Below are positions 3,806 to 11,165 of a stretch of 40,977 bases of DNA, piece by piece (within the stretch, counting starts at the first letter, position 1; each line of letters starts with the position of its first letter). The position numbers and the translations under genes are program-made. Source of the stretch: a virus. Lineage: Duplodnaviria; Heunggongvirae; Uroviricota; Caudoviricetes. The stretch is taken from IMG/VR virus record IMGVR_UViG_2563366910_000001. The stretch is one strand, 5' to 3'. The notes beneath the pieces are model-generated. The model searched no databases. It saw only the letters and a list, made by a program, of their open reading frames with translations, and was not told the origin of the DNA.

Positions 3806-4173
3806 TCAATCTCCATTGGTATCAATGTTTACAGCCTGACAAGACTCTTTGAGCACCCAGTCAATAGCGTCTTTCCATGCCTCTGTTTCGACTGGTGGAT
3901 TTTCACGCTTAACCTGTTCATAGAAGCGCACTGCTTTAACCAGTCCTTCCGGTACTACTGGTGATGGCTGTTTAGCTTCTAAATCAGCAATTCTGTCAAC
4001 CACGGCATCGACAGCATCTGAAAAGCCGAACCAGTTGCTCCACTCCGGCTCATCCCCGGTTGCTGCAAAGTACATATCTGCTAAAGCAGATTCAGCATGG
4101 TCACGCTCGTTAATGAGTTGCTCTTCGCTTTTCTCCAGTTCAGCAATACGCTTACCCCCATCCGAGATAACAC
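3806..4173 (-). pseudogene. 5'-truncated early-left gene interrupted by IS911
   Basis: The ORF 3806..4222 continues 49 nt into the IS911 left inverted repeat, so its first ~16 codons are IS-derived. The native portion (coiled-coil-like, with a PSPVVPEGL motif) begins at the IS boundary. Confidence 0.5.
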
Positions 4174-4245
4174 TGAAGTGGTTTACTGAATTTGGCCACC
4201 TGAACAGAGGTGATATGCTCACCTCAGAACAACACAGGTGCCATA

Positions 4246-5393
<1,148 letters not shown>

Positions 5394-5457
5394 CTCGGTG
5401 GCCAGTTTTTGTTGACCACTTCAATTCACCCCTACAGAGAGCAAAAGAGAAACGCCG

Positions 5458-6039
5458 ATGAACAACTCATGGTGGCAGGAACTAATGCATTTTTTCCTGC
5501 AAGGAATGACACTTAAACAGTTGATTCATATGCTAATCATCCTGATCATATTGATTATTGTTATGCCGGTAAGCGTAAAAGAATGGATAAACCTGCATAG
5601 TCCAGAAATCCTTCCTCATTACTGGATGTATTACATCCTGTTGTTTTGCGTTAGCTATGTGCTTAACGGCGTTGTTAATTCCGCTTATCACGCTGTGACT
5701 GAAAGAATTGAGGTATTCGCTGCTCAGAAGCGCAAATCTAAAGAAGAAAAATATGTGCAAGATTTGTTTGATTCGTTAACTCTTGGAGAAAGAGCGTATT
5801 TGGCATTCGCTGTAGCCGCTAATAACCAGCTACAAACGGAAAAGGGCGCTCATGAATCAATTTCATTGCTCAAAAAAGGACTCCTCGTTCGAAGGCCTCC
5901 TGCTGTTGGATATCCTGATACCGACCGTTTCGTTATCCCTGAAAGCTATAGACATGAGTGCTACATTAGGTTTGCCGGGAAGGCAGACAGCCTTATGGAT
6001 GAACTTATCGCTCAGGATAAGCATGGCAAAAACAAGTAA
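5458..6039 (+). CDS. sieB: Superinfection exclusion protein B-like membrane protein
   Basis: 193-aa ORF with a hydrophobic N-terminal region (LIHMLIILIILIIVMPV...YYILLFCVSYVL). Rightward gene convergent with N, immediately left of it, which is the sieB position in lambda. AT-rich. Confidence 0.5.
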   Translation: MNNSWWQELMHFFLQGMTLKQLIHMLIILIILIIVMPVSVKEWINLHSPEILPHYWMYYILLFCVSYVLNGVVNSAYHAVTERIEVFAAQKRKSKEEKYVQDLFDSLTLGERAYLAFAVAANNQLQTEKGAHESISLLKKGLLVRRPPAVGYPDTDRFVIPESYRHECYIRFAGKADSLMDELIAQDKHGKNK

Positions 6040-6055
6040 TTAGCAAATGAATTTA

Positions 6056-6328
6056 TCATCTCGCCGTCAGTTGTTTTGATTTCCGGTAGCCTGCCGCGTA
6101 AAGAGCTACGTTCGGAAGACAAGTTGAACCTTCATATTTTCTGGTCAACGTTGTCAGAGTTATCACTTCTGCTCTCATTGCTGGTTTGAGCTTGCATTGC
6201 AAGACCACTCGTGAAGGGGTTGGCCTGTGTAGCTTGTCGGAGCTGATCGCCTCCTGACTTTGCAGATTTGCGCGACGAGCTCTACGGCGAGAAGCTGCGG
6301 TGCCTTTAAATTCTGTTTTTCTGGACAT
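6056..6328 (-). CDS. N: N-like transcription antitermination protein (arginine-rich motif)
   Basis: Proposed start MSRKTEFKGTAASRRRARRANLQ carries an arginine-rich motif near the N-terminus, like the boxB-binding motifs of lambda/21 N. First gene leftward of the pL/nutL region; RBS GGAGG upstream of the ATG at 6326-6328. Confidence 0.6.
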   Translation of the reverse strand: MSRKTEFKGTAASRRRARRANLQSQEAISSDKLHRPTPSRVVLQCKLKPAMRAEVITLTTLTRKYEGSTCLPNVALYAAGYRKSKQLTAR

Positions 6329-6426
6329 GGATTCCTCCCGAATAAACTTTGGCGATGCAATCTCGAAGCTCCTCCTGAGACGGTTGCTTCGGCATTGCAT
6401 CCCACAGCTTATGTGGTTGGGTGATC

Positions 6427-6471
6427 TGGCTTTTCAGCCACGTAGTCGAGAGTCGACGTTGTTTAAAGAGC
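6427..6471 (-). promoter_or_regulatory. nutL candidate (boxA GCTCTTTAA + boxB hairpin TGGCTGAAAAGCCA)
   Basis: On the minus strand: boxA-like GGCTCTTTAA (6463-6472), a 22-nt spacer, then a 5-bp stem with GAAA loop (6427-6440). Same architecture and spacer motif (AACAACG...CTACG) as the nutR candidate. Confidence 0.5.
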
Positions 6472-6519
6472 CTGCCAGTCTGTTCCATTTGGCTTCCAGC
6501 GTCCTGCTGACGGTTAAAT

Positions 6520-6620
6520 AGTACGATATGTACTTTACAAGATCAATACAATTTGTTGTAAGTTGGCGTGGTTTTTTATAACGCTTTGTATTTAATAGTG
6601 TTGTTTTTTAGCGTGGATGT
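6520..6620 (-). promoter_or_regulatory. Putative pL promoter / OL operator region
   Basis: AT-rich region upstream of nutL/N with short palindromes (AGTACGATATGTACT; ATACAATTTGTTGTA) resembling the TACA/TGTA half-sites between cI and cro. Exact sites not resolved. Confidence 0.3.
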
Positions 6621-6732
6621 ATTGCCTCGGCGATGTAAGGAGAGATCAGAATTGCGTGGTTTAGTGGGTTGCATCTATTTATTTTTCAATAAATATAATT
6701 GGTTATGTGTTTTTAGGTGGGCGAACGTGAGG

Positions 6733-6759
6733 CAAAGAAAACCCGGCGCTGAGGCCGGG
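6733..6759 (-). terminator. Rho-independent terminator after the cI-linked operon (tImm-like)
   Basis: Minus strand: CCCGGCCUCAGCGCCGGG hairpin followed by UUUUCUUU, 6 nt downstream of the stop of gene 6765..7517. Confidence 0.5.
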
Positions 6760-6764
6760 TTGTA

Positions 6765-7517
6765 TTATGCTGCAAGTCTCTTAACCCAAGTCTCTCTTTT
6801 GGAGAATGGTAGAACTTGGCTTGATTCATGGAAGAGTAAGGAGAGTTGTTGCATTTGATCACCAATTGCTTCGCTGTCTATAACAACAAATCTGTTGTTA
6901 TACTCCTCACTTGAAGCTTTAAGATCAATTAGTTTCCCAAGCAATGAGTAAGCACTATTCCAGCTTCCTCCGTGTTTCACGCTTGATGTAAAAACGTATT
7001 TAGGTATGTCGGTTTTTATTGTTACAGGGACGGTAATTTGATGTCCACTCAAGCCATATACGTTTTCACGAAGAGAAAGTGCGTCTCTAAGCTCTGTGTG
7101 ATATAGATAATCAATAACCATACTTTCAAACTTTTCAGCTTGAACTGGCTGATACCAGTCTAACGACAAAGTTGATGCGAGTATACCAGCTCTAATTATG
7201 TTCGATGTAATCGCACCGACATCCTTTTCTGTTGCCCAAGCAATGATTTCTCCTCGAGCATTGAGTTCTGCGCCTTCTTTAAGCAGTAATTGTCGTATCT
7301 CATCAAGTCGTTTTTTGGTAAGCGAGATCCCTCTTGCCTCCATATTCATTAAGGCATCGCATCTGTCACTAACTAAATACCTACCATTGACTTCACGGAT
7401 AAAGGCACCGACATGCTCTCCATCATCACAGTAAGTGAATGGACTGATAATTCTCAAGGTCTTGCCTATTGGATGGCATTCGAAACCTAGTTGTGAGATC
7501 ACTGTTGAGCACATCAT
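6765..7517 (-). CDS. Hypothetical protein (250 aa), distal gene of cI-linked cassette
   Basis: ATG at 7515-7517 overlaps the upstream stop (ATGA coupling). AT-rich relative to flanking phage genes. No motif recognised. Followed by the terminator at 6733-6759. Confidence 0.6.
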   Translation of the reverse strand: MMCSTVISQLGFECHPIGKTLRIISPFTYCDDGEHVGAFIREVNGRYLVSDRCDALMNMEARGISLTKKRLDEIRQLLLKEGAELNARGEIIAWATEKDVGAITSNIIRAGILASTLSLDWYQPVQAEKFESMVIDYLYHTELRDALSLRENVYGLSGHQITVPVTIKTDIPKYVFTSSVKHGGSWNSAYSLLGKLIDLKASSEEYNNRFVVIDSEAIGDQMQQLSLLFHESSQVLPFSKRETWVKRLAA

Positions 7518-8071
7518 ATTCCAAACCCCATTTGCCCCGACTCATCTTCAAGCGGTAAAGGTATTCTCCCAGAGTAAGTTATGTTCAGATGTTTACAGAA
7601 GTAATTCCAATACCCTACCAGGTCATCTGGGTTTATGTCATCTTCGATTGGAAACGCTATTCTATCACTATAGTATCCAGCTTCTTCATAGTATACATGG
7701 TAGTGAGCACCGTAAATGATATCTTGGTACTTCGGATGATCGACCTTGTAACTATTCGTGTGTTTGTCAAAGTGATAGGTATCTACCGCGAAAACCCTCT
7801 TGTTATGATAGAAAGCAATAATATTTATTTTAGGGTAAGAAATCGGGTCATCAGGTTCTGAATCCTGATCTGGTTTCCATTTCAGTTCAAACTTTAGCCC
7901 TTGTATAGGTATACAATCCTCATCCAAGGGGATGATATGGGCTTGTAGCCACATATCAGAGCGACTTGGTTTCTGTTTCCATTTAACGCCAGAAAAGTTA
8001 ACTATTTTTTTACAATAAAGTACTTTATCAACTTCTACTTGGCTTGGCTGATAATCATCTATTTTTGCCAA
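7514..8071 (-). CDS. Hypothetical protein (185 aa), proximal gene of cI-linked cassette
   Basis: ORF begins 39 nt after the cI stop. The only start at the 5' end is TTG (8069-8071) with a weak SD; the next in-frame ATG is at 7954. AT-rich, His/Tyr/Asp-rich C-terminal half. No motif recognised. Confidence 0.5.
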   Translation of the reverse strand: MAKIDDYQPSQVEVDKVLYCKKIVNFSGVKWKQKPSRSDMWLQAHIIPLDEDCIPIQGLKFELKWKPDQDSEPDDPISYPKINIIAFYHNKRVFAVDTYHFDKHTNSYKVDHPKYQDIIYGAHYHVYYEEAGYYSDRIAFPIEDDINPDDLVGYWNYFCKHLNITYSGRIPLPLEDESGQMGFGI

Positions 8072-8110
8072 TGTTTACCGCCCTGTAAATTGTAGATAAA
8101 AGTGGTTTCA

Positions 8111-8764
8111 TCACCCAAACGTCTCTTCAGGCCATTGGCTGGCGATAACTTTCCCCACAACGGAACAACTCTCATTGCATGGGATCATTGGGTATTGTGG
8201 GTTTAGTGGCTGTAGAAACACCTGACCGCTATCCCTGATCAGTTTCTTGAAGGTAAATTCATCACCACCAAGTCTGGCTATGCAGAAATCGCCGGGCTCA
8301 ACAGCTTGCTCAGGGTCAACCAGAATTAACATCCCGTCAGGAAAGCTGGGTTTGGAACCTGTTGGTGCGGTCATTGAGTTACCTTCAACCTCAAGCCAGA
8401 ATGCAGAGTCACTGGCTTTTTTGGTTGTGCTTACCAATCTCTCCGCATCGCCTTTGGTAAAGGTTCTGAGTTCTGGAGAGAACATCCCAGCCTGAACATG
8501 AGAAAAAACAGGGTACTCATATTGTTTTTTAACTGGGGCCGATGAGTATTCGCCAACAGGTGAAAATGTCCCGTCGTGGTTGAATGATATGTTATCAATA
8601 CCAAGGTATTTAAACACCACACCAATATCACTAAGAGATGGATGACGAGATCCGCGCAACCAGTGTCCAATCCCACCCTGCGTCATACCTAGCTCTTCGG
8701 CTAACTTCTCTTGAGTTATGCCGAGCTCTTTCATTCTGGATCTAGCCAGTTCATACCATTTCAT
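8111..8764 (-). CDS. cI: CI-type prophage repressor (HTH_XRE + S24 LexA-like peptidase domain)
   Basis: N-terminal HTH ([20 protein letters not shown]) and a C-terminal S24 autocleavage domain. Start chosen at ATG 8762-8764 (AAGGA 7 nt upstream); alternative starts at 8770, 8806 and 8812. Confidence 0.85.
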
Positions 8765-8881
8765 TTTCATGTCCTTATTATTACGCTCTGTACTGGAACC
8801 ATCCATGCACAATGTGTATTTTTACTTGTATTCGCAAAGTACATATTGTATTTTTTTATTCGTGTTTACTATGGAGGGCAT
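8765..8881. promoter_or_regulatory. Divergent PRM/PR promoter and OR operator region
   Basis: 117-bp AT-rich intergenic region between divergent cI and cro, with repeated ACA-n3-TGT palindromes (ACAATGTGT 8809-8817; TACATATTGTA 8841-8851). Confidence 0.45.
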
Positions 8882-9097
8882 ATGAGCAACCTACGAAAAT
8901 ATCGAGAGTCACTGAATATCTCTCAAACAACACTTGCTAAGGCAGTTGGATGCACACAGGGAGCTATCGGACATTGGGAATCTGGTCGTCGCTTCCCAGA
9001 CCTTAAAACATGCCGTGCTCTTGTTGCGTGCCTAAACAAGTTAGGCGCAAAAGTCAGTCTTGATGACGTGTTCCCGCCGGAACACAAAGCCGCTTAA
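8882..9097 (+). CDS. cro: Cro-like repressor (HTH_XRE, 71 aa)
   Basis: ATG at 8882 with GGAGG 5 nt upstream. HTH motif QTTLAKAVGCTQGAIGHWESG. Divergent from cI, followed by nutR. Confidence 0.75.
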   Translation: MSNLRKYRESLNISQTTLAKAVGCTQGAIGHWESGRRFPDLKTCRALVACLNKLGAKVSLDDVFPPEHKAA

Positions 9098-9107
9098 TAA
9101 GCGGATC

Positions 9108-9153
9108 CGCTCTTTGTAACAACGGACATTCGTCCTACGTCGCTGAAAAGCGA
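9108..9153 (+). promoter_or_regulatory. nutR candidate (boxA CGCTCTTTG + boxB hairpin TCGCTGAAAAGCGA)
   Basis: boxA-like CGCTCTTT at 9108-9115, a 23-24 nt spacer, then a 5-bp stem with GAAA loop at 9140-9153. Mirrors the nutL candidate. Confidence 0.5.
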
Positions 9154-9238
9154 GTTCCAAGATATCTGACCAACTAAGGCCATATGCGTTTCCACGCATA
9201 CCTTTCAACTAACTATTCACTATTGGAAATCTTAAGAA

Positions 9239-9535
9239 ATGGAAAGAACAAGTTACAGCAAACTATCACAGCGTGACGTTGATCGCGCAGAAACAGATTT
9301 ACTTATCAATCTGTCAGCTATTACCCAGCGCGGTCTGGCAAAGATGATTGGCTGTCATGAATCGAAGATAAGCAGAACGGACTGGAGATTTATTGCTTCG
9401 GTCTTGTGTGCTTTCGGAATGGCATCAGACATCAGTCCGATTAGCAGGGCTTTTAAGTATGCGCTTGATGGACTCACCAATAAAAAACGCCCGGCGGCAA
9501 CCGAGCGTTCTGAACAAATCCAGATGGAATTCTGA
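9239..9535 (+). CDS. cII: CII transcriptional activator
   Basis: 98-aa ORF whose C-terminus LTNKKRPAATERSEQIQMEF matches lambda CII as recalled; HTH present; located between cro and O. Confidence 0.88.
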   Translation: MERTSYSKLSQRDVDRAETDLLINLSAITQRGLAKMIGCHESKISRTDWRFIASVLCAFGMASDISPISRAFKYALDGLTNKKRPAATERSEQIQMEF

Positions 9536-9557
9536 GGTCATTACTGGATCAATCCAC
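9481..9557 (-). ncRNA. oop: OOP-like antisense RNA (approximate bounds)
   Basis: Minus-strand hairpin (complement of 9487-9509) followed by a U-run, antisense to the cII 3' end. This is the position of OOP RNA and its terminator in lambda. The 5' end is inferred from the lambda length (~77 nt), not observed. Confidence 0.5.
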
Positions 9558-9567
9558 AGGAGTCATT

Positions 9568-10467
9568 ATGACAAATACAGCAAAAATACTCAACTTCTGC
9601 AGAGGTAACTTTGCCAAACAGGAGCGTAATGTGGCAGATCTCGATGATGGTTACGCCAGACTATCAAATATGCTGCTTGAGGCTTATTCAGGCGCAGATC
9701 TGACCAAGCGACAGTTTAAAGTGCTGCTTGCCATTCTGCGTAAAACCTATGGATGGAATAAACCAATGGACAGAATCACCGATTCTCAACTTAGCGAGAT
9801 TACAAAGTTACCCGTCAAACGGTGCAATGAAGCCAAGTTAGAACTCGTCAGAATGAATATTATCAAGCAGCAAGGCGGCATGTTTGGACCAAATAAAAAC
9901 ATCTCAGAATGGTGTATCCCTCAAAACGAGGGAAAATCCCCTAAAACGAGGGATAAAACATCCCTCAAATTGGGGGATTGCTATCCCTCAAAACAGGGGG
10001 ACACAAAAGACACTATTACAAAAGAAAAAAGAAAAGATTATTCGTCAGAGAATTCTGGCGAATCCTCTGACCAGCCAGAAAACGACCTTTCTGTGGTGAA
10101 ACCGGATGCTGCAATTCAGAGCGGCAGCAAGTGGGGGACAGCAGAAGACCTGACCGCCGCAGAATGGATGTTTGACATGGTGAAGACCATCGCGCCATCA
10201 GCCAGAAAACCGAATTTTGCAGGGTGGGCTAACGATATCCGCCTGATGCGTGAACGTGACGGACGTAACCATCGCGACATGTGTGTACTGTTCCGCTGGG
10301 CATGCCAGGACAACTTCTGGTCCGGTAACGTGCTGAGCCCGGCCAAACTCCGCGACAAGTGGACCCAGCTCGAAATCAACCGTAACAAGCAACAGGCAGG
10401 TGTGACAGCCTGCAAACCAAAACTCGACCTGACAAACACTGACTGGATTTACGGGGTGGATTTATGA
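9568..10467 (+). CDS. O: Replication initiator protein O
   Basis: 299-aa ORF matching recalled lambda O over its whole length, with the ori iterons embedded in the coding sequence. Confidence 0.95.
   Translation: MTNTAKILNFCRGNFAKQERNVADLDDGYARLSNMLLEAYSGADLTKRQFKVLLAILRKTYGWNKPMDRITDSQLSEITKLPVKRCNEAKLELVRMNIIKQQGGMFGPNKNISEWCIPQNEGKSPKTRDKTSLKLGDCYPSKQGDTKDTITKEKRKDYSSENSGESSDQPENDLSVVKPDAAIQSGSKWGTAEDLTAAEWMFDMVKTIAPSARKPNFAGWANDIRLMRERDGRNHRDMCVLFRWACQDNFWSGNVLSPAKLRDKWTQLEINRNKQQAGVTACKPKLDLTNTDWIYGVDL
9915..10045 (+). repeat. ori-lambda-type origin: four ~19-bp iterons plus AT-rich region inside O
   Basis: Four direct repeats of the form ATCCCTCAAAACGAGGGA (9915-10001), followed by an A/T-rich tract (10002-10045). 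Confidence 0.85.
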
Positions 10468-11165
10468 AAAACATCGCCGCACAGATGGTTAATTTTGACC
10501 GTGAGCAGATGCGTCGGATCGCCAACAACATGCCGGAACAGTACGACGAAAAGCCGCAGGTACAGCAGGTAGCGCAGATCATCAACGGTGTGTTCAGCCA
10601 GTTACTGGCAACTTTCCCGGCGAGTCTGGCTAACCGTGACCAGAACGAACTGAACGAAATCCGCCGCCAGTGGGTTCTGGCTTTCCGGGAAAACGGGATC
10701 ACCACAATGGAACAGGTTAACGCAGGAATGCGCGTAGCCCGTCGGCAGAATCGACCATTTCTGCCATCACCCGGGCAGTTTGTTGCATGGTGCCGGGAAG
10801 AAGCATCCGTTATCGCCGGACTGCCAAACGTCAGCGAGCTGGTTGATATGGTTTACGAGTATTGCCGGAAGCGAGGCCTGTATCCGGATGCAGAGTCTTA
10901 TCCGTGGAAATCGAACGCGCACTACTGGCTGGTTACCAACCTGTACCAGAACATGCGGGCCAATGCGCTGACTGACGCGGAATTACGACGCAAGGCTGCC
11001 GATGAACTGACCTGTATGACAGCGCGAATTAACCGTGGTGAGACGATACCTGAACCAGTAAAACAACTTCCTGTCATGGGCGGCAGACCTCTAAATCGTG
11101 TTCAGGCGCTGGCGAAGATCGCAGAAATTAAAGCTAAGTTAGGACTGAAAGGAGCAAGTGTATGA
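10464..11165 (+). CDS. P: Replication protein P (DnaB helicase loader)
   Basis: 233-aa ORF matching recalled lambda P; start overlaps the O stop (ATGA). Confidence 0.95.
   Translation: MKNIAAQMVNFDREQMRRIANNMPEQYDEKPQVQQVAQIINGVFSQLLATFPASLANRDQNELNEIRRQWVLAFRENGITTMEQVNAGMRVARRQNRPFLPSPGQFVAWCREEASVIAGLPNVSELVDMVYEYCRKRGLYPDAESYPWKSNAHYWLVTNLYQNMRANALTDAELRRKAADELTCMTARINRGETIPEPVKQLPVMGGRPLNRVQALAKIAEIKAKLGLKGASV

What the first reader, a model, noticed from the sequence alone, without database searches (positions are those of the whole stretch)
6427..6471. Matching nutL and nutR sites with a 14-nt GAAA-loop boxB, distinct from lambda boxB
Both candidate nut sites share the same architecture: boxA GCTCTTT, a 22-23 nt spacer containing AACAACG...CTACG, then a 5-bp stem with GAAA loop (nutL TGGCTGAAAAGCCA on the minus strand; nutR TCGCTGAAAAGCGA at 9140-9153). 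The paired occurrence at the expected positions supports a functional N/nut system. Its boxB differs from lambda's 15-nt GCCCTGAAAAAGGGC, consistent with the different arginine-rich motif of this N protein.
Basis: seen in the sequence. Interest (0 to 1): 0.45.

Follow-up and report, generated by a model that had tools for sequence, protein, structure and literature searches.

The report
Known phage nut sites, tetraloop boxB
These are the two N-utilisation (nut) RNA sites of a common VT2-Sakai-type lambdoid prophage, already annotated as putative sites in GenBank, so the finding is correct but ordinary; the only unusual detail is that their boxB hairpin has a true 4-base GNRA loop instead of the 5-base loop of lambda and P22.

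Summary
nutL (6427-6471, minus) and nutR (9109-9153, plus) are two 45-nt elements in transcript sense. One lies between pL and N, the other between cro and tR1/cII. Each has boxA GCUCUUU, a spacer, and a 5-bp boxB stem with a GAAA loop.

That hairpin is the hallmark of H-19B/933W-type nut sites.

Both sites are 45/45 identical to the features "putative N-utilization leftward/rightward" in the VT2-Sakai record AP000422.1. N is 98.9% identical to VT2-Sakai N and belongs to Pfam N_peptide. The nutL segment occurs in 746 of 5,426 complete E. coli genomes.

Across relatives, both hairpins are kept by compensatory changes: 96.9% of cells pair, against 70% in shuffles.

The loop type tracks the N arginine-rich motif without exception. 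Twenty-four distinct N-termini with RRRxRRAxLQ-like motifs go with GNRA tetraloops (GAAA or GCAA). Six with RRRERLKAKALA go with GACAA pentaloops.

Verdict: functional N/nut sites of a known, already annotated kind. No experimental study of this tetraloop/N pair was found. Low interest.

The parts
6427..6471 (-). nutL: boxA, spacer with hairpin, and boxB, in the pL transcript about 98 nt upstream of the N start
   Evidence: It is 45/45 identical to the feature 'putative N-utilization leftward' of AP000422.1.
6464..6471 (-). boxA-L, GCUCUUUA
   Evidence: Read directly from the sequence. The same core GCTCTTTAAC is annotated as boxA in P22 nutL and in phage 21.
6445..6457 (-). nutL spacer hairpin, GUCGA-CUC-UCGAC
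   Evidence: Folding. Across relatives the stem is kept while the loop varies, and other phages use different complementary stems.
6427..6440 (-). boxB-L, UGGCU-GAAA-AGCCA: 5-bp stem with a GNRA tetraloop
   Evidence: Compensatory stem variants are AGGCU/AGCCU, CGGCU/AGCCG and UGGCC/GGCCA.
9109..9153 (+). nutR: boxA, spacer with hairpin, and boxB, in the pR transcript 12 nt after the cro stop and before tR1/cII
   Evidence: It is 45/45 identical to the feature 'putative N-utilization rightward' of AP000422.1.
9124..9135 (+). nutR spacer hairpin, GGAC-AUUC-GUCC, identical to the hairpin in the H-19B/933W nutR spacer
   Evidence: H-19B oligo RS663 in the supplement of PMC3526286. 933W nutR. The variant GGCC/GGCC is compensatory.
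9140..9153 (+). boxB-R, UCGCU-GAAA-AGCGA
   Evidence: H-19B/933W have the same stem with loop GACAA. The variant UAGCU/AGCUA is compensatory.
6056..6328 (-). N gene, 90 aa from MSRKTEFKG, preceded by the Shine-Dalgarno sequence GGGAGGA. The arginine-rich motif is residues ~9-26, GTAASRRRARRANLQSQE. The mechanical ORF list runs upstream to 6400.
   Evidence: Pfam PF25694 N_peptide, 112.5 bits. 98.9% identical to VT2-Sakai N, which AP000422.1 annotates from the same short start.
6518..6546 (-). pL placed by position: TTGATC, 17-nt spacer, TACTAT. This puts boxA-L about 40 nt into the transcript.
   Evidence: Coordinates transferred from the feature 'putative major leftward promoter' of AP000422.1 onto the sequence. 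The simple promoter scan did not report it because it matches 8 of 12 positions. Inferred.
9183..9208 (+). tR1 region downstream of nutR
   Evidence: Coordinates transferred from the feature 'putative rho dependent terminator for pR transcript' of AP000422.1. Inferred.

Best explanation
These are the nutL and nutR RNA sites of a VT2-Sakai-type lambdoid prophage.

Proposed mechanism:
1. The sites are transcribed from pL and pR.
2. Each nascent site folds into two local hairpins.
3. The 3' hairpin (boxB, a 5-bp stem closed by U-A and capped by a GNRA tetraloop) is bound by the N-terminal arginine-rich helix of the 90-aa N protein encoded just downstream of nutL.
4. The 5' single-stranded boxA (GCUCUUUA/G) can recruit NusB-S10.
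5. NusA joins through N and the spacer.
6. The conserved P22/H-19B-like C-terminus of N (LPNVALYAAGYRKSKQLTAR) engages RNA polymerase. Polymerase then reads through tR1, tL1 and later terminators into the delayed-early genes.
7. The spacer hairpin most likely keeps the spacer from mispairing with boxA or boxB, so that boxB forms co-transcriptionally. In nutR it overlaps the site where Rho and NusA were footprinted in H-19B.

Shown here: anatomy, position, conservation, covariation of both hairpins, and co-variation of the loop with the arginine-rich motif.

Inferred: every binding step and antitermination itself.
For: Position and orientation:
- nutL lies between pL and N. nutR lies between the cro stop and tR1/cII. 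Both are in transcript sense.
- N is a Pfam N_peptide member.
- Both sites are 45/45 identical to the annotated putative nut sites of VT2-Sakai.

Relation to the characterised H-19B system:
- The architecture AAYG, hairpin, CUACG, 5-bp stem is shared with H-19B/933W/HK97.
- H-19B N and its nutR are active in in-vitro and in-vivo antitermination assays. The H-19B nutR is described as having two hairpins, with N on the boxB loop and NusA and Rho on the spacer (PMC3526286 and PMC4499122).

Covariation on 35 distinct nut sites in a fixed, unfitted register:
- 96.9% of cells pair, against 70.0% in shuffles.
- The covariation score is 0.632 against 0.127, with 0 of 500 shuffles reaching it.
- Every slid register scores 0.095 or less.
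- Six of 10 pairs change on both sides.
- RNAalifold predicts the same two hairpins de novo on that alignment.
- With no pairing filter, all 321 N-linked boxB sites pair at the two variable positions. In loci without N, 100 of 157 fail.

Loop against arginine-rich motif:
- 24 distinct N-termini with RRRxRRAxLQ-like motifs go with GAAA or GCAA in both nutL and nutR.
- 6 distinct N-termini with RRRERLKAKALA-like motifs go with GACAA.
- There are no mixed cases.
- The only loop variants seen, GAAA and GCAA, both satisfy GNRA.
Against: - No experiment on this N/boxB pair was found. The VT2-Sakai annotation says 'putative'.
- Thermodynamic prediction alone is weak. In 61-nt and 191-nt contexts the minimum-energy fold pairs boxA with the 3' half of boxB instead of forming boxB. 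The z-scores of the 45- and 61-nt folds are modest, -1.3 to -2.6.
- The loci used for the loop/motif association were partly recruited by loop-specific DNA patterns and are phylogenetically related. The six pentaloop N-termini are close variants of essentially one lineage.
- Similarity of arginine-rich motifs does not predict loop type. The phage 21 motif GTAKSRYKARRAELIAER matches this one at 10 of 18 positions, yet its boxB is a 7-bp stem with a CUAACC hexaloop.
- An IS element sits in the pL operon downstream, so this particular prophage copy may not be fully functional.
Confidence: 0.9

Rival explanations
1. The elements are inherited but no longer functional. The prophage is decaying (an IS sits in the pL operon), and the conservation seen only reflects recent common ancestry of near-identical prophages.
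For: Most loci with this N are 98-100% identical to it. An IS911-like element interrupts the pL operon at 4174-5423.
Against: Diverged relatives, with N 45-65% identical, keep both hairpins through compensatory changes and keep GNRA loops. The same N/nut block occurs in phages deposited as complete phage genomes: ev207, ev017, PhiR57_1 and the Stx2 phages. N, cI, cro and cII are all intact in the window.
Confidence: 0.05
2. The inverted repeats act at the DNA level as palindromic protein-binding sites, or act as intrinsic terminators or attenuators, and not as N-binding RNA.
For: Both hairpins are perfect short inverted repeats. The generic scan lists the nutL spacer repeat as terminator-like on the opposite strand.
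Against: No U-run follows either boxB in transcript sense. The asymmetric parts (boxA, CUACG, the GAAA loop) keep the same transcript-sense order in two divergent operons. Complementarity is conserved, not sequence, which is the signature of an RNA helix. The closely related H-19B nutR was footprinted as RNA bound by N and NusA.
Confidence: 0.02
3. The sites are nut sites, but the spacer hairpin is the functionally dominant element, for example as a specific NusA or Rho loading structure, and not merely a passive insulator of boxB.
For: The spacer hairpin shows more covariation than boxB: 4 of its 5 pairs change on both sides, using five different stems. In H-19B nutR both Rho and NusA protect the spacer. 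The frame AAYG...CUACG is invariant in all sites collected.
Against: From my own recollection of Neely & Friedman 2000 (paper not held): deleting the H-19B dyad had little effect, one-arm mutations were inactivating, and compensatory changes restored activity. That fits an anti-misfolding role. CTACG was part of my search patterns, so its invariance is partly by construction for the pattern-derived loci. Lambda, P22 and phage 21 nut sites work without such a hairpin.
Confidence: 0.25

Closest known systems
VT2-Sakai (Sp5) putative nutL/nutR and N (GenBank AP000422.1); also Stx2 II, phage 1717, ev207 and ev017
   Same: nutL and nutR are 45/45 identical. N is 98.9-100% identical. The placement relative to pL, cro, tR1 and cII is the same.
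   Different: Nothing inside the sites differs. Only flanking bases and the gene cassette between cI and pL differ. The record marks the sites 'putative'.
H-19B / 933W / HK97 N-nut system, the experimentally studied relative
   Same: Same layout: boxA, AAYG, spacer hairpin, CUACG, then a 5-bp boxB stem closed by U-A. The nutR spacer hairpin and boxB stem are identical base for base. The N N-terminus (M-T/S-R-R/K-T-x-F-K-G) and C-terminus (LPNVA-L/I-YAAGYRKSKQLTAR) are shared.
   Different: The loop is GACAA (5 nt) there and GAAA (4 nt) here, in both sites. The motif is RRRERLKAKALANGV there and RRRARRANLQSQE here. N is 127 aa and only about 41% identical. 933W/H-19B have a degenerate boxA in nutR (GCTATTT) and none recognisable in nutL, whereas this phage has consensus boxA in both.
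P22 gp24 (N) and its boxB
   Same: Same C-terminal RNAP-binding end. boxA is GCTCTTTAAC. The boxB stem ends in GCU...AGC with a U-A closing pair.
   Different: P22 has a GACAA pentaloop whose C is looped out and contacted by the peptide (PMC12550061). Here that base is absent. P22 has no spacer hairpin. Its motif is KTRRHERRRKLAIER.
Lambda N and boxB
   Same: The motif core is similar: TRRRERRAEKQAQ against SRRRARRANLQSQ. Both have a 5-bp stem with a U-A closing pair and a GNRA-type fold.
   Different: Lambda loops are GAAAA/GAAGA, with one extra base that is extruded. Lambda has an 8-9-nt spacer without a hairpin, a different stem (GCCCU), a different C-terminal domain of N, and Trp18 where this N has Glu.
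Phage 21 N and boxB
   Same: boxA is GCTCTTTAAC. The motif GTAKSRYKARRAELIAER matches this N at 10 of 18 positions.
   Different: boxB is a 6-7-bp stem with a CUAACC hexaloop. The C-terminal domain is lambda-like.

Membership tests
Lambdoid nut site (boxA-spacer-boxB RNA element) | One copy lies in the pL transcript upstream of N and one in the pR transcript between cro and tR1/cII, both in transcript sense | tested here: met
   ORF map and Pfam for N, cI, Cro and CII. Sites at 6427-6471 (-) and 9109-9153 (+). Same layout as the annotated VT2-Sakai, 933W, lambda, P22 and phage 21 records.
Lambdoid nut site (boxA-spacer-boxB RNA element) | A boxA close to the consensus (C)GCUCUU(U)A lies 5' of boxB | tested here: met
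   nutL has GCTCTTTA and nutR has CGCTCTTTG. Compare lambda CGCTCTTA, and P22 and phage 21 GCTCTTTAAC.
Lambdoid nut site (boxA-spacer-boxB RNA element) | boxB is a short hairpin whose pairing is maintained in evolution | tested here: met
   All 321 N-linked sites pair with no filter applied. Two stem positions show compensatory changes.
Lambdoid nut site (boxA-spacer-boxB RNA element) | [quoted passage not shown] | tested here: met
   PF25694, 112.5 bits. 24 tetraloop-linked and 6 pentaloop-linked distinct N-termini, with no mixed case.
Lambdoid nut site (boxA-spacer-boxB RNA element) | N- and Nus-dependent read-through of terminators | not testable with these tools
   This needs a reporter or an in-vitro transcription assay. 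It has been shown only for the H-19B relative.
H-19B/933W-type nut site | A region of dyad symmetry (a hairpin) lies in the spacer between boxA and boxB | tested here: met
   Hairpins at 6445-6457 and 9124-9135. The nutR hairpin is identical to that of H-19B. Covariation.
H-19B/933W-type nut site | boxB loop is GACAA and N is the 127-aa type with RRRERLKAKALA | tested here: not met
   The loop is GAAA in both sites. N is 90 aa, about 41% identical, with motif RRRARRANLQ.
H-19B/933W-type nut site | N acts independently of boxA, NusB and S10 | not testable with these tools
   This property is recalled from Neely & Friedman 2000, which is not held. Here both sites have consensus boxA, unlike 933W nutL. 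That hints that the requirement may differ.
P22-type boxB (GNRA-like pentaloop with the third base out) | GACAA pentaloop with a looped-out C | tested here: not met
   The loop has 4 nt, GAAA, with no C. P22 sequence and structure.
Pfam PF25694 N_peptide | Score above the gathering threshold over the whole protein | tested here: met
   112.5 bits against 27.9, covering residues 1-90 and model positions 5-100 of 100.

The most novel reading that the evidence does not exclude
The RRRxRRAxLQ-type arginine-rich motif together with a true GNRA tetraloop boxB (GAAA or GCAA, no looped-out base) is a separate N specificity class inside the P22/H-19B N clade. It would be functionally orthogonal to the GACAA-reading 933W/H-19B N proteins, so different lambdoid prophages would not cross-activate each other through N. 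Because it lacks the extruded loop base, it would assemble with NusA differently from lambda.
Probability: 0.4. Interest if true: 0.4.

Novelty: already known. Interest (0 to 1): 0.22.

Why it matters
The practical value is for annotation. The window carries a standard VT2-Sakai-type early regulatory region, and its nut sites can be labelled with confidence.

There is also a modest biological point. One clade of N proteins shows a clean natural co-switch between the boxB loop (GNRA tetraloop or GACAA pentaloop) and the C-terminal half of the arginine-rich motif. This module is shuffled independently of the RNAP-binding C-terminus.

That gives a ready-made natural pair for testing two things: how arginine-rich helices discriminate between a 4-nt and a 5-nt GNRA fold, and whether different lambdoid prophages can cross-activate each other through N.

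It does not open a long-standing question, and it would not surprise a specialist.

Tried and rejected
- **Full-length degenerate pattern.** It found nothing because the two spacers differ by a 1-nt register shift inside the hairpin. I replaced it with core-motif searches.
- **First site-parsing script.** It used a greedy regex and missed all tetraloops. Corrected.
- **Collection scans with 13 specified bases.** I redesigned the patterns.
- **Plain MAFFT alignment A1.** It put the eight 933W-type nutL rows out of register. RNAalifold on it recovered only 3 spacer pairs and no boxB. I replaced it with a fixed-register, N-padded alignment A2 in which no position is fitted to pairing.
- **Rfam.** No family matches either site. 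The only hits had E > 1.
- **PDB sequence search with N.** No hit even at E <= 10.
- **Generic sigma-70 scan.** It reported neither pL nor pR. pL was placed by transferring the VT2-Sakai annotation.
- **Papers not held.** Neely & Friedman 2000 and the two Cocozaki/Ghattas/Smith 2008 papers are missing. Statements about H-19B boxA/NusB independence and about deleting the dyad therefore rest on my memory and are marked as such.
- **Literature searches for a natural tetraloop boxB or for Sakai-type nut sites.** Nothing found. This library lacks most subscription journals, so that is not evidence that no description exists.
- **Considered and rejected.** Terminator, DNA operator and chance explanations (see the rival explanations). 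Also the boxA:boxB alternative pairing seen in minimum-energy folds, as a conserved structure: several relatives keep boxB while lacking boxA in nutL.

Full report
**1. The observation**

- nutL, minus strand 6471->6427: GCTCTTT-AAACAAC-G-TCGA-CTC-TCGA-C-TACG-TGGCT-GAAA-AGCCA.
- nutR, plus strand 9109-9153: GCTCTTT-GTAACAAC-G-GAC-ATTC-GTC-C-TACG-TCGCT-GAAA-AGCGA.

Both are 45 nt long.

The boxB core GCTGAAAAGC occurs only at these two places in the window, against 0.10 expected by chance. GCTCTTT alone is common, with 12 matches against 5.75 expected. The evidence therefore lies in the combination and the placement.

As isolated 45-mers, both sites fold into two adjacent hairpins.

**2. Context**

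The surrounding genes are a textbook lambdoid immunity region:

| Gene | Coordinates | Evidence |
|---|---|---|
| N | 6056-6328 (-) | Pfam N_peptide, 112.5 bits against a cut-off of 27.9 |
| cI-like repressor | 8111-8812 (-) | HTH_3 plus Peptidase_S24 |
| Cro-like HTH protein | 8882-9097 (+) | HTH_3 |
| CII | 9239-9535 (+) | Pfam Phage_CII |
| O and P homologues | downstream of CII | |

nutL lies about 98 nt upstream of the N start. By transfer of the VT2-Sakai annotation, it lies about 40 nt downstream of pL (TTGATC, 17 nt, TACTAT at 6546-6518).

nutR begins 12 nt after the cro stop and precedes the region annotated as Rho-dependent tR1 in VT2-Sakai.

Both sites read boxA then boxB in the direction of transcription, although the two operons diverge.

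**3. The element is already on record**

- The block 6000-9600 is 100% identical to phages ev207, ev017, PhiR57_1 and PhiR63_2, and about 95% identical to many Stx-converting phages.
- N is 98.9% identical to the N of VT2-Sakai, Stx2 II and phage 1717.
- GenBank AP000422.1 (VT2-Sakai) carries the features 'putative N-utilization leftward' and 'putative N-utilization rightward'. They cover exactly these elements, and both 45-nt sites are identical to the window. That record also starts N at the short 90-aa ORF.
- The nutL segment is present in 746 of 5,426 complete E. coli genomes, including O157:H7, Nissle 1917 and the type strain.
- 452 IMG/VR stretches encode a relative of this N.

**4. The closest characterised relative**

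Oligonucleotides in the supplement of PMC3526286 give the H-19B nutR sequence. The spacer is CACAATGGACATTCGTCCTACG and boxB is TCGCT-GACAA-AGCGA. 933W has the same nutR.

The window's nutR therefore has the same spacer hairpin and the same boxB stem as H-19B. It differs in the loop (GAAA instead of GACAA) and in boxA (GCTCTTTG instead of GCTATTTT).

The same paper states that the H-19B nutR has two hairpins. N protects the boxB loop, and NusA and Rho protect the spacer. H-19B N with its nutR is active in antitermination assays.

933W and HK97 nutL have the same frame with yet another hairpin: ACAACG-ATTC-GAATAT-GAAT-CTACG-GCGCT-GACAA-AGCGC. They have no recognisable boxA.

From memory (Neely & Friedman 2000, not held), the spacer dyad symmetry is the published hallmark of H-19B nut sites, and H-19B N needs NusA but not NusB, S10 or boxA.

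**5. Comparative test of the structure**

I collected nut sites from three sources:
- loci found through N similarity;
- two loop-agnostic-stem DNA scans;
- annotated phage records.

This gave 67 distinct flanked sites linked to an N gene. I reduced them to 35 distinct rows in a fixed register, anchored only on the first AAYG and on CTACG. Each row has four arm positions on each side, whether or not they pair.

Pair counts:

| Measure | Observed | Control |
|---|---|---|
| Cells forming a standard pair | 96.9% | 70.0% (sd 1.6) in shuffles |
| Covariation score | 0.632 | 0.127; 0 of 500 shuffles reach it |
| Any slid register | - | paired 45% or less, score 0.095 or less |

The spacer hairpin uses five different stems: GUCGA/UCGAC, GAUUC/GAAUC, GGUGA/UCACC, GGAC/GUCC and GGCC/GGCC. 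Four of its five pairs change on both sides.

The boxB stem varies at its two outer pairs. U-A, A-U, G-C and C-G are seen at the first, and G-C, C-G and A-U at the second.

My site filter had required a paired boxB, so I repeated the count without it. All 321 N-linked sites still pair at both variable positions, whereas 100 of 157 pattern matches in loci without N do not.

RNAalifold on the fixed-register alignment predicts exactly these two hairpins. On the plain MAFFT alignment, which is out of register for eight rows, it finds only three spacer pairs.

One caveat applies. CTACG and the inner GCU/AGC of boxB were part of my search patterns, so their invariance is partly by construction for the pattern-derived loci.

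**6. Loop type follows the arginine-rich motif**

I linked each site to the N gene in the same locus.

- 24 distinct N N-termini go with tetraloops in nutL and nutR: GAAA, or less often GCAA. Their motif is (S/G/A)RRR(A/E)(R/H/Q)R(A/S)x(L/V)Q, or the variants RRREARKHLQ and RRRERRLHLQ.
- 6 distinct N-termini with RRRERLKA(K/Q)A(L/I)A go with GACAA in both sites.
- No locus mixes the two.

The tetraloop class includes N proteins of 88-121 aa. Some have the long 933W-like middle region, and one (L092) has a lambda-like C-terminus (...KVRGKSIPLI). The motif/boxB module therefore moves independently of the rest of N.

The two natural loop variants both satisfy GNRA. One distant member (L138) has UGGCC-GCAA-GGCCA, where the closing pair has changed on both sides.

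Limits of this result: the sequences are related by descent, the pentaloop class is essentially one lineage, and recruitment was partly by loop-specific patterns.

**7. Relation to lambda, P22 and phage 21**

All sequences below were verified from records.

| Phage | Arginine-rich motif | boxB |
|---|---|---|
| Lambda | TRRRERRAEKQAQW | GCCCU-GAAAA/GAAGA-AGGGC |
| P22 | KTRRHERRRKLAIER | GCGCU-GACAA-AGCGC |
| Phage 21 | GTAKSRYKARRAELIAER | 6-7-bp stem with CUAACC |
| This window | GTAASRRRARRANLQSQE | UGGCU/UCGCU-GAAA-AGCCA/AGCGA |

Published structures say that P22's C is looped out of a GNRA-like fold and touches the peptide (PMC12550061). Lambda N reads a GNRNA pentaloop folded as GNRA with one base extruded, plus the U-A closing pair (PMC12027372).

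The window's boxB is therefore the bare GNRA fold with the U-A closing pair and no extra base.

Its motif core resembles lambda's at 8 of 13 positions. It also resembles the phage 21 motif at 10 of 18, and phage 21 reads a completely different loop. Motif similarity is therefore suggestive only.

**8. Mechanism and confidence**

- I am about 90% confident that these are the working nut sites for this N.
- I am about 80% confident that the GNRA tetraloop, with its U-A closing pair, is the feature read by the arginine-rich helix.
- The role of the spacer hairpin (passive anti-misfolding or active NusA/Rho platform) is open.
- Minimum-energy folds of longer transcripts pair boxA with the 3' half of boxB around the spacer hairpin. 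That alternative is not conserved, because several relatives lack boxA in nutL but keep boxB. It does show why thermodynamics alone does not settle the structure. It also fits the idea that local co-transcriptional hairpins, or Nus factor binding to boxA, matter.

**9. Verdict**

The element is a known, already annotated kind: identical to the VT2-Sakai putative nutL/nutR, and a loop variant of the experimentally studied H-19B type.

What this work adds:
- the overlooked spacer hairpin;
- formal covariation support for both hairpins;
- the clean tetraloop/pentaloop co-switch with the arginine-rich motif.

I found no experimental work on the tetraloop class, but most of the relevant subscription literature is not in the searchable library. 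Interest is low.

Noticed in passing
window 4174-5423: A 1,250-bp IS3-family element resembling IS911. It has 27-nt imperfect terminal inverted repeats (4174-4200 and 5397-5423), orfA at 4246-4548 and orfB at 4575-5393. It is inserted in the pL operon between sieB and the next leftward ORF (3806-4222), and it may truncate or polarise the delayed-early leftward genes.
   Followed up: partly
window 6765-8071 (-): Two overlapping genes (7514-8071 and 6765-7517) occupy the position that rexA/rexB hold in lambda, between cI and pL. Pfam gives DUF6978 (weak) and DUF1828. PADLOC gives the candidate defence system PDC-M24, with A at E = 5e-4 and B at E = 5e-10. A terminator-like hairpin follows at 6761-6740. 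VT2-Sakai and 933W carry different cassettes at this spot.
   Followed up: partly
window 6328-6426 (-): The N leader between boxB-L and the N start contains a long hairpin (GGGAUGCAAUGCCGAAG...CUUCGAGAUUGCAUCGCC), followed shortly by the N Shine-Dalgarno sequence. The 191-nt leader fold has z = -3.1. From memory, the position is analogous to the RNase III-processed hairpin of the lambda N leader that controls N translation.
   Followed up: partly
window 9090-9104 (+): A perfect 6-bp hairpin, CCGCUU-AAU-AAGCGG, spans the cro stop codon. It ends 4 nt before the G of boxA-R (3 nt before CGCTCTTT). It is also present in VT2-Sakai. Its function is unknown.
   Followed up: no
window 6427-6471 and 9109-9153, with flanks: In longer contexts the minimum-energy fold pairs boxA (GCUCUUU) with the loop and 3' arm of boxB (GAAAAGC), enclosing the spacer hairpin. 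This is an alternative structure that would mask both boxA and boxB. It is not conserved in relatives that lack boxA in nutL, but it could matter kinetically here.
   Followed up: partly
L092 (IMGVR_UViG_3300012995_000046), N ORF starting at oriented position 10985: This N has a Sakai-like arginine-rich motif (GRRRERRAHLQSE) and tetraloop nut sites, but a lambda-like C-terminus (...GRQIHAVQKVRGKSIPLI). It is a natural chimera, showing that the RNA-binding module and the RNAP-binding module of N recombine.
   Followed up: no
window 5458-6039 (+): A SieB superinfection-exclusion homologue (Pfam SieB, E = 9e-22) lies directly downstream of N on the opposite strand, as in P22.
   Followed up: no
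window 6329-6400 (-): The mechanical ORF for N extends 24 codons upstream (MQCRSNRLRRSFEIASPKFIREES...). Several database records (AP000363, AP005153) annotate this long form. The RefSeq lambda record likewise annotates an N-terminally extended N. The short start, with a strong Shine-Dalgarno sequence and the arginine-rich motif near the N-terminus, is the more plausible one.
   Followed up: partly
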